9,184 nucleotides of DNA from a virus (lineage: Duplodnaviria; Heunggongvirae; Uroviricota; Caudoviricetes), in the IMG/VR virus record IMGVR_UViG_2695420589_000017; one strand, written 5' to 3'. How positions within the stretch are numbered: position 1 is the stretch's first letter; each line of letters opens with the position of its first letter. A program made the translations under genes and the position numbers. Below are positions 1,224 through 8,783 of this stretch, piece by piece. The notes below the pieces were generated by a model. That model did no database searches. It was not told the origin of the DNA and was given only the letters and a program-made list of their open reading frames with translations.

Positions 1224-1433
1224 ATGCGTGAAATAAATGAAGATCGCGTAATCCGTGAGGATGAATGTCGTAAGTTAACTGGAGTGTGTCGCACTACACG
1301 CTACGAACTGGAGAAAAAAGGGAGCTTTCCGTCTCGCCGTAATCTTGGTGGGCGTTCTGTAGGTTGGCTGCTGTCCGAGGTTATGGAATGGGTTAAAAGC
1401 CGGGATCGCATTAATTCAGGTAAGGCAGCGTAA
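1224..1433 (+). CDS. alpA: AlpA-family phage transcriptional regulator (MerR-like HTH; excisionase/activator type)
   Basis: 69-aa product MREINEDRVIREDECRKLTGVCRTTRYELEKKGSFPSRRNLGGRSVGWLLSEVMEWVKSRDRI has the size and HTH-like pattern of AlpA proteins found beside P4-type integrases. ATG 1224 is preceded by AGG at 1214-1216; the longer GTG-1137 start lacks an RBS (the GTG lies inside GAGGTG). Confidence 0.75.
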   Translation: MREINEDRVIREDECRKLTGVCRTTRYELEKKGSFPSRRNLGGRSVGWLLSEVMEWVKSRDRINSGKAA

Positions 1434-1462
1434 AGGGGAGCATATGACATATAAAACAAAGA

Positions 1463-1478
1463 CGACCGGGGGCGGTCG
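1463..1478 (-). terminator. Candidate rho-independent terminator for the minus-strand unit (hairpin CGACCG-GGGG-CGGTCG followed on the minus strand by a U-rich tract)
   Basis: 6-bp GC stem with 4-nt loop at 1463-1478. The minus-strand transcript continues into UCUUUGUUUUAUAU (reverse complement of 1447-1460). No T-run follows on the plus strand, so it is not a good terminator for alpA. Confidence 0.35.
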
Positions 1479-1547
1479 CCAATGGATACACACTAAACTT
1501 GAACGCATCACCAACAATGCCACATTTGCGGCTGGTGGGCAATGTGA

Positions 1548-1721
1548 TCAGTCAGATTTTGTTCGTTCCAAGGTTTGCAACGAGAGCTTTTTCCTGTGCT
1601 CTTTAAGGAATTTCTCAAGAGCAAAAGCACATGGCGCGAATCTTTCTGATTCATGCTCTATCTTTCTGCGCCGTCTTTTCCGTGCCGGTGATAATGTTTT
1701 GGTCAATTCTTTATCGGTCAT
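1548..1721 (-). CDS. Hypothetical small basic protein (57 aa; MTDKELTKTLSPARKRRRRKIEHESERF...)
   Basis: Minus-strand ORF downstream of the 101-aa gene. The internal ATG (minus-strand coordinate 1721) is preceded by AGGA with about 7-nt spacing; the longer ATG at 1736 is an alternative. Lys/Arg-rich product and a plausible terminator 70 nt downstream. Short, so coding status is uncertain. Confidence 0.35.
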   Translation of the reverse strand: MTDKELTKTLSPARKRRRRKIEHESERFAPCAFALEKFLKEHRKKLSLQTLERTKSD

Positions 1722-1778
1722 TGTGTTGTCCTGCATAGCAATGCGCCGTAATACCTTACACCACGGCGCTGATGGTGA

Positions 1779-2084
1779 TTACTCTGGTTCTTTGGTCTTG
1801 CGACGCTGGAGTTCTTCGCGTGCAACGGTGACAAGCTGCCCGATTTCTTCCGCTGCTTTGATGCCGATTTGTTCGACCTTAGCCAGGGCATCCAGTGACG
1901 ACACAAGGGGATTTTCTCCGCTGCCTTCTGCTTGGCGGCGGGCTATTTCTCCGCGCATGGCGGTTACGATAAATCCGGCATTGCTTTCGCCGTCCAGCTT
2001 AACGGATTCCATCCCTTGCATAACATCTAGTGGGACTCTGACAGTTGTCAGTTGTGATTTTGCGTTTTTGTTAGCCGTTGCCAT
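1779..2084 (-). CDS. Hypothetical 101-aa protein, putative ribbon-helix-helix (Arc/CopG-like) transcriptional regulator
   Basis: ATG at minus 2084 preceded by AGGAG (reverse complement of 2093-2097) with 8-nt spacing. N-terminal segment TTVRVPLDVMQGMESVKLDGESNAGFIVTAMRGEI fits a beta-strand/helix/helix pattern typical of RHH repressors (inference from pattern only). Transcribed divergently from the early operon, next to a palindromic operator. Confidence 0.6.
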   Translation of the reverse strand: MATANKNAKSQLTTVRVPLDVMQGMESVKLDGESNAGFIVTAMRGEIARRQAEGSGENPLVSSLDALAKVEQIGIKAAEEIGQLVTVAREELQRRKTKEPE

Positions 2085-2145
2085 TTCTGAAACTCCTAAT
2101 CATCGGTGTGTTTCAGTATACACAAAAAAAGAAATACAAAAAGCC

Positions 2146-2183
2146 TTGACGTGTGTTTCATGCGCTCATAACATGAAACACAC
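2146..2183 (+). promoter_or_regulatory. Putative sigma70 early promoter (-35 TTGACG 2146-2151, 17-bp spacer, -10 TAACAT 2169-2174) overlapped by a perfect 12-bp inverted repeat operator GTGTGTTTCATG-N9-CATGAAACACAC (2151-2162 / 2172-2183)
   Basis: Read directly from sequence. The palindrome arms are exact reverse complements. A third direct copy of the half-site GTGTGTTTCA lies at 2106-2115 on the side of the leftward gene. Confidence 0.45.
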
Positions 2184-2281
2184 CGAAAGGATTGTTGAAA
2201 TACAAAGAGCAACGCCCCGCAGTGCCGGAAACACATACGGGGCGTCTAACCACCAACGATAACGAGAGTATCGAGGCAGCT

Positions 2282-2485
2282 ATGAGAAATCATACCATAC
2301 ACCCGCAAGGGCGGGACTCGTACAACCTGAATAAATACATCTGGCGTTTTATCGCCCTGAGCACGGCACAACCGCGCGTGATTACCATTGAGGCCAGCAG
2401 CGAACAGGAAGCACGCCAGCAATCCCCGGCTGGCTGCGTGATGGTATTCGCCGCCCGTATTCGTCAGGGGGGGTGCCATGCCTGA
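2282..2485 (+). CDS. Icd/Kil-like small protein (host cell-division inhibitor-like, P4 family), 67 aa
   Basis: ATG 2282 with GAGG at 2273-2276 (5-nt spacing). Product MRNHTIHPQGRDSYNLNKYIWRFIALSTAQPRVITIEASSEQEARQQSPAGCVMVFAARIRQGG matches my recollection of the Icd-like pattern (F.A....PRVI.IEA...EAR....FAAR..QGG) found as first gene of P4-type early operons; not verified by alignment. The upstream TTG-2192 extension has no usable RBS spacing. Confidence 0.55.
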   Translation: MRNHTIHPQGRDSYNLNKYIWRFIALSTAQPRVITIEASSEQEARQQSPAGCVMVFAARIRQGGCHA

Positions 2486-5919: not shown

Positions 5920-6214
5920 NNNNNNNNNNNNNNNNNNNNNNNNNNNNNNNNNNNNNNNNNNNNNNNNNNNNNNNNNNNNNNNNNNNNNNNNNNNNNNNNN
6001 NNNNNNNNNNNNNNNNNNNNNNNNNNNNNNNNNNNNNNNNNNNNNNNNNNNNNNNNNNNNNNNNNNNNNNNNNNNNNNNNNNNNNNNNNNNNNNNNNNNN
6101 NNNNNNNNNNNNNNNNNNNNNNNNNNNNNNNNNNNNNNNNNNNNNNNNNNNNNNNNNNNNNNNNNNNNNNNNNNNNNNNNNNNNNNNNNNNNNNNNNNNN
6201 NNNNNNNNNNNNNN
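5920..6214. other. Run of 295 N (unresolved or masked sequence; true length unknown)
   Basis: Directly visible; no flanking repeat. Confidence 1.
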
Positions 6215-6434: not shown

Positions 6435-6629
6435 ATGCCAGAGAACAACAGCAGAAAACCGGATAAAAGTGCAACAGTGCACATAGACGCCGGAACTATG
6501 GAGAAGCTCGAACGCTATCAGCAGTTCATTAAAAGTCATCACCCTGGAATGCCAGTACCCACGAAAGGGCAGATTGCGAGAAGCGCGGTTGAATACTGGT
6601 ACAGGGCAACGTTAGGAGCCTGGCTATGA
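6435..6629 (+). CDS. Hypothetical small protein, 64 aa, first gene of the head operon
   Basis: ATG 6435 with GGAGG at 6423-6427 (7-nt spacing); alternative in-frame ATGs at 6402 and 6405. Stop overlaps the ATG of the protease-capsid gene (ATGA). Product MPENNSRKPDKSATVHIDAGTMEKLERYQQFIKSHHPG...; function unknown. Confidence 0.5.
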   Translation: MPENNSRKPDKSATVHIDAGTMEKLERYQQFIKSHHPGMPVPTKGQIARSAVEYWYRATLGAWL

Positions 6630-8506
6630 AAACATGGTTTTCCATTAAGGCTATGGCTGATGTTGTACATGTACGCATTTATGACGAGATCGGCGGGTAC
6701 GGTGTAAAAGCATCGGCACTTACTGACGAGATCAACGCGTGCGGTAATGTGCCTGAAATCCATCTTCGCATCCATTCACCTGGTGGCGACATCTTTGAAG
6801 GGCTGGCTATCTATAACGCCCTGAAAAATCATCCGGCAAAGAAAATTGTACACATTGAAGGCATGGCGGCTTCTATGGCCTCGTTTATTGCCATGTGTGG
6901 CGATCACATCGTTATGCCTGAAAACGCGATGATGATGATACATGCCCCCCGTGGTGTTACTGCCGGAGTGTCGGGCGACGTTCGCCGCTTTGCTGACCTG
7001 ATGGACAAGCTGGGCGACACGATGGCGGAAACCTACGCCGGAAGAACGGGCAGGAGCAAACAGGAAATCACCGCCATGATGGAGGCGGAAACCTGGATGG
7101 ATGGCAATGAGTGTAAGGCTAATGGCTTCGCAGATGAGGTTATACCCGCGATTACAGCAATGGCCAGAATTGAATCAAAACGAATCGGAGATTTTTCGAA
7201 TATGCCGGAAAATATTAAAAGCATGATCAGCCAGAAAACTGGCAGCGGAGAACAGGAACGACTCAACGGGATACGTGAATTGTTTGGCACGTTCAATGGA
7301 AGATATAACGACCTGGCTATAAGTTGTCTTGCTGATTCAGGCTGTAGCGTTGAGGATGCACGCGAACGCCTTTTACTCACTATGGGTAAAGAATCGACAC
7401 CGACAAACAAAACCACCCCCGCAAATCTTTACTACGCGTACACGGATAACGGCAACATAACCGGCGATGCAATGCGTCAGGGGCTTAATGCGCGTCTGGG
7501 ACATGAACAGGCAGAACGCGGCAACCCTTACGCCATGATGAGCCTTTTCGATATGGCACAGGCATCATTAACCCATCGCGGCATAAGCACAGGCAGCTAC
7601 AGCACACGCTCGCAGATAGTAAACGCGGCATTCACCCACAGCAGCAGCGATTTTACTTATATCCTTGCTGGTGGTGCTGAAAAATCCGTGCTTGCCGGAT
7701 GGGAACACAGCGGCGAAACGTTCCGCCAGTGGACGAAAAAAGGTTCATTGTCAAACTTCCATGAGGCACGTCGTGTTGGCCTGAATGGCTTCTCTACATT
7801 AAACAAAGTGCCGGAAGGCGCGGAATATAAATACATCACCACCAGTGACCGTGGCGAACCAATCGCGCTGGCAACTTACGGAAATATTTTCAGCATTACC
7901 CGACAGGCGATTATTAACGATGACCTGAATCAGTTAACAGTTATCCCACAGGCAATGGGGCGAGCAGCCGCCAGAACGGTGGGTAATCTGGTTCATCTGG
8001 TGCTGACAGGAAACACAAAGCTTTCTGACGGTATACCGCTGTTCAGCAAAAAACACGGAAATGATATTGATAACGGAGTCAGCACTACAGGGCTTGGCAT
8101 TGCACGCCGTGCAATGCGCACACAGAGGGATGAAAACGGTGAGGTGCTGAATATTGTGCCAAAATTCCTTCTTGTTCCTGCGGCTCTGGAAGACAGAGCG
8201 TTGCAAATGGTTAACTCAACCACGCCTTTCGGTGCCGATACAAACAGTGGTTCATATAACCCGTACCACAAACAACTGGATATTATTGTCGATCCCCGCC
8301 TTGATGAAGTCAGTGATAAGCAATGGTACATGCTTTCAGCACAGGGAACGGACACAATTGAGGTGGCTTATCTTGACGGTAATGACGAGCCTTACCTTGA
8401 GCAGCAGGAGGGCTTTATTGTTGACGGTGTGGCCTGGAAGGTCCGCATTGATGCTGGCGTTGCTGCTCTGGATTATCGCGGAATGGTCAGAGCGATTTCT
8501 TCATGA
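6626..8506 (+). CDS. Prohead (ClpP-like, S14-type) protease fused to major capsid protein, 626 aa
   Basis: Single uninterrupted frame; AGGAG 7 nt upstream of ATG 6626. N-terminal ~190 aa carry ClpP-like protease signatures (IHSPGGDIFEGLAIYNAL; GMAASMASFIA serine context; MMMIHAP histidine context). The C-terminal ~350 aa are of major-capsid size; the capsid assignment rests on size, position and my recollection of protease/major capsid fusion proteins in enterobacterial prophages, not on alignment. Strong terminator follows. Confidence 0.8.
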   Translation: MKTWFSIKAMADVVHVRIYDEIGGYGVKASALTDEINACGNVPEIHLRIHSPGGDIFEGLAIYNALKNHPAKKIVHIEGMAASMASFIAMCGDHIVMPENAMMMIHAPRGVTAGVSGDVRRFADLMDKLGDTMAETYAGRTGRSKQEITAMMEAETWMDGNECKANGFADEVIPAITAMARIESKRIGDFSNMPENIKSMISQKTGSGEQERLNGIRELFGTFNGRYNDLAISCLADSGCSVEDARERLLLTMGKESTPTNKTTPANLYYAYTDNGNITGDAMRQGLNARLGHEQAERGNPYAMMSLFDMAQASLTHRGISTGSYSTRSQIVNAAFTHSSSDFTYILAGGAEKSVLAGWEHSGETFRQWTKKGSLSNFHEARRVGLNGFSTLNKVPEGAEYKYITTSDRGEPIALATYGNIFSITRQAIINDDLNQLTVIPQAMGRAAARTVGNLVHLVLTGNTKLSDGIPLFSKKHGNDIDNGVSTTGLGIARRAMRTQRDENGEVLNIVPKFLLVPAALEDRALQMVNSTTPFGADTNSGSYNPYHKQLDIIVDPRLDEVSDKQWYMLSAQGTDTIEVAYLDGNDEPYLEQQEGFIVDGVAWKVRIDAGVAALDYRGMVRAISS

Positions 8507-8588: not shown

Positions 8589-8783
8589 AACGCATTTTTG
8601 TGGTTTTATCGTCATCATCATCATGTGTGTAACCTGTTGTTTTTANNNNNNNNNNNNNNNNNNNNNNNNNNNNNNNNNNNNNNNNNNNNNNNNNNNNNNN
8701 NNNNNNNNNNNNNNNNNNNNNNNNNNAACGCATTTTTGTGGTTTTATCGTCATCATCATCATGTGTGTAACCTGTTGTTTTTA
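8589..8783. repeat. Two identical 57-nt direct repeats (8589-8645 and 8727-8783) flanking an 81-nt N run
   Basis: AACGCATTTTTGTGGTTTTATCGTCATCATCATCATGTGTGTAACCTGTTGTTTTTA occurs identically on both sides of the N run; it contains a (CAT)4 tract. Confidence 0.9.
8646..8726. other. Run of 81 N (unresolved or masked sequence)
   Basis: Directly visible. Confidence 1.

What the first reader, a model, noticed from the sequence alone, without database searches (positions are those of the whole stretch)
1548..2084. Divergent minus-strand module: putative RHH regulator plus a small highly basic protein
These are the only genes on the opposite strand. The 101-aa gene has a good RBS and an N-terminus compatible with a ribbon-helix-helix DNA-binding fold. 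It is followed by a 57-aa Lys/Arg-rich ORF and a minus-strand terminator-like hairpin. The arrangement could be the element's repressor module, which would be notable because P4 itself uses an RNA-based immunity system, or a small two-gene toxin-antitoxin-like cassette.
Basis: inference. Interest (0 to 1): 0.5.

Follow-up and report, generated by a model that had tools for sequence, protein, structure and literature searches.

The report
Phage-satellite repressor module with antisense ORF
Between the activator gene and the replication genes of an E. coli phage satellite sits a small backward-facing operon; its first protein looks like the satellite's sequence-specific repressor, a role no protein has yet been given in Gram-negative satellites, and the whole operon lies inside a stop-free reading frame on the opposite strand.

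Summary
ORFs of 101 aa (1779-2084, -) and 57 aa (1548-1721, -), a good RBS and a strong minus-strand terminator are all present, in an EcCICFT073/P4-like E. coli satellite.

The 101-aa protein belongs to the uncharacterised YlcI/YnfO (DUF3950) family. It is predicted as a ribbon-helix-helix (RHH) domain plus a long C-terminal helix.

Three exact GTGTGTTTCA repeats bracket the -35/-10 of the rightward icd-primase promoter and the RHH gene's own 5' region. Across 28 related loci the RHH cassette is swapped among at least nine types, and the repeats change with it while the promoter scaffold, AlpA and Icd stay the same. This is strong comparative evidence for an operator-specific repressor and autoregulator.

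The 57-aa protein is real (purifying selection, invariant helical core) and confined to Escherichia. It stays the same beside unrelated RHH cassettes and has no toxin fold, so a toxin-antitoxin pair is unlikely. Its function is unknown.

Unexpectedly, the module lies antisense inside a stop-free + ORF (1444-2262). That ORF starts at a conserved RBS/ATG right after alpA, as P4 eta does. It is open in 26 of 28 loci.

No experiment supports any of this yet.

The parts
1779..2084 (-). RHH gene. 101-aa YlcI/YnfO-family protein: RHH DNA-binding domain (about residues 9-52), a linker, and a long C-terminal helix (59-98).
2093..2097 (-). Shine-Dalgarno AGGAG of the RHH gene, 8 nt before its ATG.
   Evidence: Read directly from the sequence.
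1548..1721 (-). 57-aa basic protein with a disordered K/R-rich N-terminus and one long helix. The core ERFAPCAFALEKFLKE is invariant. Function unknown.
   Evidence: 51 homologous clusters, all Escherichia/Shigella. PGAP gene. phrog_21027. AF2. dN/dS 0.41. A fixed 57-nt spacer after the RHH stop in all 18 E. coli loci.
1451..1480 (-). Intrinsic terminator of the minus-strand operon: 8-bp G+C stem at 1480..1461, then a U-rich tail.
   Evidence: -16.2 kcal/mol, z = -4.7. On the + strand there is no T run after the stem.
2103..2115 (+). Operator-like repeat O1 (TCGGTGTGTTTCA). It overlaps the candidate -10 (TATACT, 2120..2115) and the likely start site of the leftward promoter.
   Evidence: The position is conserved and the sequence co-varies with RHH type.
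2146..2174 (+). Rightward sigma-70-type promoter for icd and the replication genes: TTGACG, 17 nt, TAACAT.
   Evidence: The TTGAC -35 sits at the same position in the related loci.
2151..2160 (+). Operator-like repeat O2 (GTGTGTTTCA), abutting and overlapping the -35.
2174..2183 (-). Operator-like repeat O3, the inverted copy of O2. It overlaps the last base of the -10 and the expected start site.
1444..2262 (+). Stop-free 'bridge' ORF (272 codons) antisense to the whole module. Its ATG lies 11 nt after the alpA stop, behind AAGGGGAG, and it ends 19 nt before the icd ATG. It is the positional analogue of P4 eta.
   Evidence: no stops in this frame against 5-40 in each of the other five frames. 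(noncoding part P about 3e-5 in the window). (conserved RBS and ATG). with PMC10111431 for P4 eta. No protein-level selection.
1224..1433 (+). alpA (activator/excisionase family), the upstream neighbour to which the bridge ORF is coupled.
   Evidence: Pfam Phage_AlpA E = 4.8e-16. PGAP annotation.
2282..2485 (+). icd-like (P4 kil-like) gene, the first gene of the rightward operon that the operators would control.
   Evidence: NF033153 E = 3.4e-19. The P4 Eta C-terminus hits the same model at E = 1.4e-20.

Best explanation
The module is the protein repressor (immunity-like) cassette of an EcCICFT073/P4-type satellite.

**Transcription unit.** A weak leftward promoter (candidate -10 TATACT at 2120..2115) transcribes the RHH gene and the 57-aa gene up to the terminator at 1461-1480.

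**Proposed repression.** Dimers of the RHH protein insert their N-terminal beta-ribbon (residues about 10-17, KSQLTTVRV) into the three GTGTGTTTCA sites. The long C-terminal helix probably joins the dimers into higher oligomers. Occupancy of O2 and O3, which flank the -35 and -10, shuts the rightward promoter for icd and the replication genes. Occupancy of O1 limits the repressor's own synthesis.

**Specificity.** It is set by the exchangeable RHH cassette together with its operators.

**The 57-aa protein.** It is a co-transcribed, lineage-specific accessory protein that does not depend on which RHH is present. Its target is unknown.

**Proposed induction.** When a helper phage switches on alpA, the alpA transcript continues rightwards through the module. 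It is translated along the stop-free bridge ORF, as P4 eta is. That would protect it from Rho, carry expression past the repressed promoter into icd and primase, and collide with repressor transcription.

**Shown here:**
- the genes, the RHH fold prediction and the family assignment;
- the repeats, their position on the promoter and their co-variation with the RHH type;
- the conserved openness and start of the bridge ORF.

**Inferred:** DNA binding itself, the sign of regulation, oligomerisation, and the whole read-through switch.
For: **Family and fold**
- NF041551 at 63 bits against a cut-off of 30.
- AF2 pLDDT 82, with helices 19-28 and 35-52 after an extended strand, then helix 59-98.

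**Operators**
- GTGTGTTTCA occurs exactly three times in 9184 bases, all within 2106-2183.
- O2 and O3 form a palindrome whose loop carries the -10.

**Co-variation, with the promoter scaffold kept**
- SQLTTVRVP and SQLFTVRVP go with GTGTGTTTCA. This holds in Escherichia, Xenorhabdus, Photorhabdus and Serratia.
- SQMTTIRVP goes with ATGTATATCWCA.
- SQLKNIRIP and SQVKNVRIP go with GTGTGTATTTA.
- SQSLTARIP goes with GTGTAAGAC.
- SQQINARFP goes with TGGGATTCA.
- SQTVAARVP goes with GTGTTCAACAC.
- SKRIDARVP goes with GTGTCCGACAC.
- The DUF3950 type SAKKNIRFP goes with TGTGCGCACA.
- The Arc-like types PPYQMRLP and PPFQFRLD go with ATGGTAATTACCAT and TGTAATGT..ACATTACA.

**The repeats track the RHH, not its neighbours**
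- Loci L002 and L003 encode the identical AlpA (WP_000953272.1) but have different RHH genes and different repeats.
- The window and L003 share 95% identical Icd but differ in repeats.

**Position**
- The gene sits divergently between alpA/int and the replication genes in most of the genome-survey loci where neighbours could be identified.

**Bridge ORF**
- Open for 242-522 codons in 18 of 18 E. coli loci and 8 of 10 loci from other genera.
- The probability that the noncoding part is open by chance is 1e-4 to 1e-9 per locus.
- The start, TA(A/G)-GGGGGA-ATG-(A/G)CA-CAT-AAA, lies 9-11 nt after the alpA stop and is conserved.
- The ORF is in frame with icd in 12 of 18 E. coli loci.
- P4 Eta consists of Phage_ASH plus an Icd-like domain. 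According to PMC10111431 it is coupled to the alpA homologue, and its translation prevents termination.

**Literature**
- Fillol-Salom 2018 (PMC6092414) state that a global repressor in Gram-negative PICIs is unclear.
Against: - There is no experimental evidence for binding or repression.
- The promoter match is 9 of 12 and no better than chance for the region as a whole. The leftward promoter is only a candidate -10.
- The motifs in related loci were picked out with an exact-repeat script and by eye, not by a blind statistical method. The roughly nine types are not all independent.
- In Gram-negative PICIs the known master regulator is the activator AlpA, and a deletion phenotype for this gene has never been reported.
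- Two loci (Erwinia L009 and L012) lack the open bridge frame.
- In the window the bridge ORF stops 19 nt before icd and is out of frame with it.
- The function of the 57-aa protein remains unexplained.
Confidence: 0.7

Rival explanations
1. A two-gene type II toxin-antitoxin cassette, with the RHH protein as antitoxin and autorepressor and the 57-aa basic protein as toxin.
For: - The gene order (RHH first, small protein second, autoregulatory repeats upstream) matches many RHH-antitoxin operons.
- There is a weak Pfam hit to PSK_trans_fac/VapB-like at E = 0.02.
Against: - The 57-aa protein has no hit in Pfam, NCBIfam or PADLOC.
- It is predicted as a disordered tail plus one helix, with no toxin fold and no membrane segment.
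- It is missing next to RHH orthologues in Xenorhabdus, Photorhabdus, Enterobacter, Serratia, Erwinia and Phytobacter.
- It stays near-identical beside RHH cassettes from different families. These are only 57-65 aa long and have no C-terminal extension that could neutralise a toxin.
- O2 and O3 sit on the neighbouring operon's promoter, not only on the module's own.
Confidence: 0.05
2. The RHH protein only autoregulates a small accessory (moron-like) operon and has no role in controlling the satellite's early or replication genes. The repeats near the rightward promoter are incidental to a shared compact intergenic region.
For: - O1 lies in the module's own 5' region.
- AlpA is the experimentally shown master regulator of Gram-negative PICIs.
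- L028 keeps a full P4-type RNA immunity set as well.
Against: - Two of the three sites flank the -35 and -10 of the rightward promoter. This geometry is kept through at least nine changes of operator sequence.
- In the Arc-like cassettes the rightward -35 even overlaps the RHH start codon.
Confidence: 0.12
3. The + strand ORF (1444-2262) is the real gene and the two minus-strand ORFs are non-functional shadows of it.
For: - The + frame is stop-free in 26 of 28 loci and has a conserved RBS and ATG.
- PGAP and other callers sometimes annotate it, for example as an 'Icd-like pseudogene' or as 239-321-aa genes.
Against: - The protein-level selection is on the minus frames. RHH has dN/dS 0.14 and a mean BLOSUM62 score of replacements of +0.15, against 0.29 and -0.98 in the open + frame. 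The small ORF has 0.41 and -0.14 against 0.66 and -1.20.
- The minus ORFs match curated families and fold confidently.
- The + translation has no family hit and is Ser/Cys/Arg-rich.
- Its sequence changes completely when the RHH cassette is swapped.
Confidence: 0.03
4. The RHH protein is an Stl-like sensor. It represses the early promoter until a helper-phage protein binds its highly conserved C-terminal helix and removes it from DNA. The read-through bridge would then be secondary.
For: - The C-terminal half (NPL[VL]SSLDAL..VE.IG) is more conserved than the DNA-binding half across genera. L60, S62, S63, L64, L67, E71, I73 and G74 are invariant.
- This pattern is what a conserved partner or oligomer interface would produce.
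- SaPI Stl works this way (PMC6092414).
Against: - Many cassettes (57-65 aa) lack this helix altogether yet occupy the same place with the same operator geometry.
- No partner is known.
- The helix could simply be a tetramerisation domain, as in P22 Mnt (from my own knowledge of that protein).
Confidence: 0.1

Closest known systems
P22 immI repressors Mnt and Arc (ribbon-helix-helix)
   Same: - Small RHH proteins that bind repeated operators overlapping divergent promoters and autoregulate.
- Mnt, like the 101-aa protein, is an RHH domain followed by a C-terminal helical oligomerisation domain (my own knowledge of Mnt).
- Short Arc-like cassettes occupy the same slot in relatives (L002, L022).
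   Different: - No sequence match to Pfam Arc for the window protein.
- It sits in a satellite and controls icd and primase rather than an antirepressor.
- It is embedded antisense in a translated ORF.
- Many exchangeable specificity types exist.
P4 immunity/early region (vis/alpA homologue, eta with nested kil, PLE, CI RNA, seqA)
   Same: - The same place in the genome, between the alpA homologue and the primase operon.
- A long ORF that starts at the end of the alpA homologue, contains an internal promoter and runs into an Icd/Kil-like domain (PMC10111431).
   Different: - P4 has no opposite-strand genes there and uses the CI RNA.
- The window has no C4 or isrK RNA and no Phage_ASH domain.
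- In the window the bridge ORF is out of frame with icd.
SaPI/Gram-positive PICI master repressor Stl (Rpr)
   Same: A repressor gene transcribed divergently from the excision and replication operon of a phage satellite (PMC6092414).
   Different: - Unrelated fold and size, as I recall that Stl proteins are larger helix-turn-helix proteins.
- Stl lies on the integrase side and is co-oriented with int, whereas here int and alpA are on the other strand.
- De-repression by a helper protein has not been shown here.
YlcI (DLP12) and YnfO (Qin) prophage proteins, DUF3950/PF13132
   Same: The same N-terminal domain family. Short 59-65-aa members fill the same slot in other E. coli satellites.
   Different: - The K-12 proteins lie in lambdoid prophages (per NCBI's family name; my recollection is that they are near the terminase genes).
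- They have no known function.
- I found no paper on their function.
- The window protein has an extra helix of about 45 aa.
Plasmid RHH copy-control repressors CopG and omega
   Different: Those genes are co-transcribed with, or lie upstream on the same strand as, their targets. There is no sequence relationship.

Membership tests
YlcI/YnfO family (NCBIfam NF041551; Pfam DUF3950) | Match to the family profile above the curated cut-off | tested here: met
   NF041551 at 63.2 bits against a cut-off of 30, residues 9-50. Pfam DUF3950 itself is not hit by the window protein, but it is hit by the 65-aa cassette in L016.
Ribbon-helix-helix (Arc/MetJ/CopG) DNA-binding superfamily | N-terminal beta-strand followed by two helices | tested here: met
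Ribbon-helix-helix (Arc/MetJ/CopG) DNA-binding superfamily | Dimer whose paired strands form the DNA-reading ribbon | not testable with these tools
   Only monomer prediction was available. DSSP shows no strand in the monomer.
Ribbon-helix-helix (Arc/MetJ/CopG) DNA-binding superfamily | Binds short repeated operator sites near its own or target promoter | tested here: inconclusive
   Three exact 10-bp repeats lie on the divergent promoters, and the repeats co-vary with beta-strand residues in at least nine cassette types. This is comparative evidence only, with no binding assay.
Type II toxin-antitoxin system | Downstream partner has a recognisable toxin family or fold | tested here: not met
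   No Pfam, NCBIfam or PADLOC hit. AF2 gives a disordered tail plus a single helix.
Type II toxin-antitoxin system | The two genes are conserved and exchanged as a pair; the antitoxin carries a toxin-binding extension | tested here: not met
   The small ORF is absent outside Escherichia. It is kept beside swapped RHH cassettes of 57-65 aa that have no extension.
P4 eta/kil nested-gene arrangement | Long ORF starting at the end of the alpA homologue (translational coupling) | tested here: met
   The ATG at 1444 lies 11 nt after the alpA stop, behind AAGGGGAG. The same start is found in 8 of 12 distinct loci.
P4 eta/kil nested-gene arrangement | The ORF ends in, and is in frame with, the Icd/Kil-like domain | tested here: not met
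   In the window the ORF stops at 2262, 19 nt before the icd ATG and in another frame. The feature is met in 12 of 18 E. coli relatives and in 6 of the loci from other genera.
P4 eta/kil nested-gene arrangement | Phage_ASH domain and internal CI (C4) and seqA (isrK) RNAs | tested here: not met
   No Pfam hit for the window ORF. No Rfam hit even at E up to 10. P4 and L028 do have these features.
PICI master repressor (Stl/Rpr-like role) | Represses the satellite's early operon and is relieved by the helper phage | not testable with these tools
   The position and operator geometry fit. Function would need reporter and induction experiments.

The most novel reading that the evidence does not exclude
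The stop-free, alpA-coupled ORF that runs antisense through the repressor operon is a selected 'translational bridge'. On helper induction, AlpA-driven transcripts translated along it would escape Rho. They would then bypass the RHH-repressed promoter to express icd and primase, and silence the convergently transcribed repressor. This would be a satellite genetic switch built from an exchangeable RHH immunity cassette nested inside an eta-like ORF. It would be the missing repressor arm of Gram-negative PICI regulation.
Probability: 0.3. Interest if true: 0.75.

Novelty: new variant of a known kind. Interest (0 to 1): 0.55.

Why it matters
Gram-negative phage-inducible islands are known to be switched on by AlpA, but whether they have a repressor has been left open (PMC6092414). 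This module offers a concrete, widespread candidate. Part of the region is found in 1452 of 5426 complete E. coli genomes, and 356 of them carry at least 80% of it.

The candidate comes with natural 'immunity types' that predict which operator each protein should bind, so the prediction can be tested directly by swapping cassettes. It would also give a first function to the uncharacterised YlcI/YnfO/DUF3950 family.

The antisense-embedded arrangement is a clear case of a reading frame kept open without selection on its protein sequence. It could show how satellites couple activation to silencing of their own repressor.

Practically, it explains recurrent PGAP 'Icd-like pseudogene' calls at this position.

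Tried and rejected
- **RNA immunity in the window.** Rfam scans at gathering threshold and at E up to 10 found no C4/CI or isrK RNA, so this was rejected. The same scan finds both RNAs in P4 and L028.
- **Phage records.** tblastn of both proteins against 50,697 phage records gave no match.
- **Solved structures by sequence.** The only match was a weak one (E = 0.43) of residues 47-88 to the helix-hairpin-helix domain of Hef. I rejected an HhH reading because the first glycine of the G-h-G hairpin is not conserved (Q/K/E/A in the family) and AF2 models one continuous helix.
- **Bridge ORF as an ordinary shadow ORF.** Partly true, but not a sufficient explanation. Synonymous resampling shows the parts opposite the genes would be open by chance in 13-81% of trials. 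The 116-289 noncoding codons would not. My first assumption about the frame relation was wrong and was corrected.
- **AlpA as the binder of the repeats.** Rejected, because L002 and L003 have identical AlpA but different repeats.
- **EcCICFT073 in the CFT073 chromosome.** Two attempts to locate it by coordinate guess returned only the helper prophage and core genes, and I abandoned the search.
- **A 60-aa ORF upstream of the CFT073 prophage terminase.** It is not a YlcI/YnfO member.
- **Literature searches.** Two were badly phrased and returned nothing useful.
- **Fold search for the 57-aa protein.** Not run, because a single helix gives meaningless matches.
Full report
**Context.** The window is a phage satellite of the EcCICFT073/P4 kind, integrated between cspD/yljB and clpS in E. 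coli. In the locus of strain D5 the 901 bases around the finding are 99.9% identical to the window. The gene order there is integrase, alpA, two minus-strand genes, icd-like, a hypothetical gene, DUF4222, primase, a hypothetical gene, SSB, a ClpP-protease/major-capsid fusion and DUF1441. Part of the 901-bp region around the finding occurs in 1452 of 5426 complete E. coli genomes, and 356 of them carry at least 80% of it.

**Check of the observation.**
- The 101-aa ORF lies at 1779-2084 (-), with AGGAG 8 nt before its ATG.
- The second ORF is listed as 62 aa, but its conserved start is M6. This gives the 57-aa protein at 1548-1721 with its own AGGA, as PGAP annotates it.
- The 57-aa protein has 17 K/R in 57 residues and pI 10.3.
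- A minus-strand intrinsic terminator lies at 1461-1480 (-16.2 kcal/mol, z = -4.7).
- These are the only minus-strand genes annotated in the element.

**The 101-aa protein.**
- It matches NCBIfam YlcI_YnfO_N (E = 1.6e-17, residues 9-50) and fills phrog_6522 end to end. No Pfam model passes its cut-off.
- It has 216 homologous clusters in Escherichia, Salmonella, Citrobacter, Klebsiella, Enterobacter, Yersinia, Serratia, Xenorhabdus, Photorhabdus and Edwardsiella.
- The family is nevertheless small: 73 clusters at 50% identity among 1.84 billion proteins. Members are either long (about 100-130 aa) or short (about 55-65 aa).
- AlphaFold (pLDDT 82) gives an extended N-terminal segment, helices 19-28 and 35-52, a Gly/Ser linker and one long helix 59-98.
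- I found no paper on the function of YlcI, YnfO or DUF3950.

**Operators.**
- The 197-bp gap between the RHH ATG and the icd ATG holds three exact copies of GTGTGTTTCA, and the window holds no others.
- O1 (2106-2115) overlaps a candidate leftward -10 (TATACT, 2120..2115).
- O2 (2151-2160) abuts the -35 (TTGACG, 2146-2151) of a rightward promoter.
- O3 (2174-2183, inverted) overlaps the end of its -10 (TAACAT, 2169-2174).

**The decisive comparison.** I collected 12 loci from other genera through the RHH protein and 15 more E. coli loci through homologues of the small ORF. Two further E. coli loci came from BLAST.

In all of them the intergenic scaffold is kept: RBS, site, -10-like TATAxT, an A-rich stretch, TTGAC, site, about 10 nt, then the inverted site. 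The repeated motif, however, changes with the RHH cassette, and in particular with the residues of the predicted beta-strand. At least nine pairings are seen:

| RHH cassette (beta-strand residues) | Repeated motif |
|---|---|
| SQLTTVRVP, SQLFTVRVP | GTGTGTTTCA |
| SQMTTIRVP | ATGTATATCWCA |
| SQLKNIRIP, SQVKNVRIP | GTGTGTATTTA |
| SQSLTARIP | GTGTAAGAC |
| SQQINARFP | TGGGATTCA |
| SQTVAARVP | GTGTTCAACAC |
| SKRIDARVP | GTGTCCGACAC |
| SAKKNIRFP (DUF3950) | TGTGCGCACA |
| PPYQMRLP (Arc-like) | ATGGTAATTACCAT |
| PPFQFRLD (Arc-like) | TGTAATGT..ACATTACA |

Two natural controls show that the repeats follow the RHH and not its neighbours:
- L002 and L003 encode the same AlpA protein but have different RHH genes and different repeats.
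- The window and L003 have 95% identical Icd but different repeats.

This is the pattern expected of an immunity repressor and its operators. I take it as strong, though purely comparative, evidence that the RHH protein binds these sites. Two sites bracket the -35 and -10 of the rightward promoter and one lies on the module's own 5' end. The likeliest action is therefore repression of icd and the replication genes, together with autoregulation. The long C-terminal helix is more conserved than the DNA-binding half. It may join dimers bound at separate sites, as the C-terminal domain of P22 Mnt does (my own knowledge), or it may be a docking site for a partner.

**The 57-aa protein.**
- It is a real gene. 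It has 51 homologous clusters, all in Escherichia or Shigella, with the invariant core ERFAPCAFALEKFLKE and in-frame indels.
- Its dN/dS is 0.41, with conservative replacements. Every antisense frame is worse.
- AlphaFold gives a disordered basic N-terminus and one helix.
- It has no hit in Pfam, NCBIfam or PADLOC. Its only family is phrog_21027, of unknown function.
- It is absent after the RHH gene in the other genera.
- In E. coli it always starts exactly 57 nt after the RHH stop, whichever RHH cassette precedes it.
- Some of those cassettes are only 57-65 aa long and have no tail that could bind a toxin. Together with the absence of a toxin fold, this makes a toxin-antitoxin pair unlikely.
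- My best reading is a lineage-specific accessory protein made together with the repressor while the island is quiescent. Its target is unknown. The basic tail is itself variable, so it is probably not the essential part.

**An unexpected overlap.** On the + strand, one frame is free of stops from the end of alpA to just before icd (window 1363-2259, first ATG at 1444). The other five frames carry 5-19 stops over the same stretch.
- The same holds in all 18 E. coli loci and in 8 of 10 loci from other genera, for 242-522 codons. It holds across unrelated RHH cassettes and non-homologous flanks.
- Opposite the two genes an open frame is not surprising: it is open in 13-81% of synonymous resamples. 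Over the 116-289 noncoding codons the chance is 1e-4 to 1e-9 per locus.
- The frame has a conserved start, TA(A/G)-GGGGGA(G)-ATG-(A/G)CA-CAT-AAA, 9-11 nt after the alpA stop.
- In 12 of 18 E. coli loci it runs in frame into the Icd-like domain.
- Its amino-acid sequence is not conserved and has no family hit. Selection therefore acts on openness, not on the product.
- This matches P4 eta. The P4 eta ORF (X51522 8168-8812, -) follows the alpA homologue ORF88 and ends in an Icd-like domain, which is Kil.
- I therefore read 1444-2262 as an eta-like bridge. It would let AlpA-driven transcripts cross the inserted, oppositely oriented repressor operon. That such read-through also bypasses the repressed promoter and silences the repressor by convergent transcription is my inference.
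- In the window the bridge stops 19 nt before icd and is out of frame with it.
- The bridge also explains why PGAP calls an 'Icd-like pseudogene, missing C-terminus' on the + strand of L002 and L003.

**Relation to RNA immunity.** The window has no C4/CI or isrK RNA. L028, which has the same RHH type and the same operators, carries both RNAs downstream inside a Phage_ASH plus Icd gene. The protein module is therefore an addition to the P4-type region rather than a simple substitute.

**Novelty and limits.**
- RHH repressors with repeated operators are a well-known kind.
- What is new:
  - the assignment of this role to the YlcI/YnfO family;
  - its place as a candidate repressor in Gram-negative satellites, for which Fillol-Salom et al. 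wrote that a global repressor is unclear, and for which I found no later report;
  - the cassette-like exchange of specificities;
  - the antisense nesting inside an eta-like ORF.
- All functional statements rest on sequence comparison and structure prediction, and nothing has been tested experimentally.
- The paper library does not cover most subscription journals, so prior work may exist that I could not see.

Noticed in passing
window 2213-2276 (+): A conserved two-hairpin leader lies between the rightward promoter and the icd ATG. The first stem pairs CGCCCCG (2213-2219) with CGGGGCG (2238-2244) and has an inner AGTG/CAC stem. Single-stranded TCTAACCACCAAC follows, then a second hairpin (2257-2273) next to the SD. 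The element is present in all 18 loci compared, with compensatory changes in both stems, and has no Rfam match. The ...ACCACCA tail recalls the tRNA-like ends of RNase P substrates such as C4/CI precursors, which is my own recollection and was not tested.
   Followed up: partly
L002 3807-4400 and L003 3807-4254 (+); also L019 2556-3275 and L021 2361-3326: Annotation pipelines call the antisense bridge frame a gene or an 'Icd-like pseudogene, missing C-terminus'. In O157:H7 (L002) the RHH and small genes on the other strand are left unannotated.
   Followed up: yes
L028 2145-2333 (-): An E. coli satellite with the same 101-aa RHH type and the same GTGTGTTTCA operators also carries C4 (P4 CI-like, 78 bits) and isrK (seqA-like, 62 bits) RNAs. 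They lie inside a Phage_ASH plus Icd gene downstream. Protein and RNA immunity elements therefore coexist in one element.
   Followed up: partly
window 1779-1925 (-), protein residues 54-101: The C-terminal helix of the RHH protein is more conserved across genera than the DNA-binding domain (invariant L60, S62, S63, L64, L67, E71, I73, G74). All E. coli cassette types of the YlcI/YnfO kind end in the same tail, (Q/R)RRKAKE(P/S/Q)E, whereas the Arc-like cassettes end in QQRGIEPKG. This suggests that recombination breakpoints lie inside the 3' end of the gene.
   Followed up: partly
window 6626-8506 (+): The ClpP-protease/major-capsid fusion is only 61.6% identical to that of strain D5, although the integrase-to-SSB part is 92-100% identical. 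The late region is therefore mosaic.
   Followed up: no
window 5920-6214 and 8646-8726: Two runs of N (295 and 81 bases) mask parts of the window. The sequence flanking the second run is directly repeated: the same translated stretch appears on both sides.
   Followed up: no
L004, L005, L008, L011, about 300-1000 nt downstream of the RHH gene: In Xenorhabdus and Photorhabdus the stretch between the RHH gene and the next gene has no ORF on the RHH strand. It contains short repeated DNA units, seen as repeated peptide strings such as GYPIISGQLPNPLK and SLRG(S/L)VR in the bridge-frame translation, and the bridge frame stays open across it for up to 782 nt.
   Followed up: no
window 2282-2485 (+) and P4 X51522 8168-8812 (-): The C-terminus of P4 Eta (Kil) hits the NCBIfam Icd-like model at E = 1.4e-20, although BLASTP between it and the window's Icd-like protein finds nothing. 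PHROGs labels the Icd-like family 'transcriptional repressor' (phrog_6196), which looks like an inherited mislabel from the old P4 'cI gene product' ORF.
   Followed up: partly
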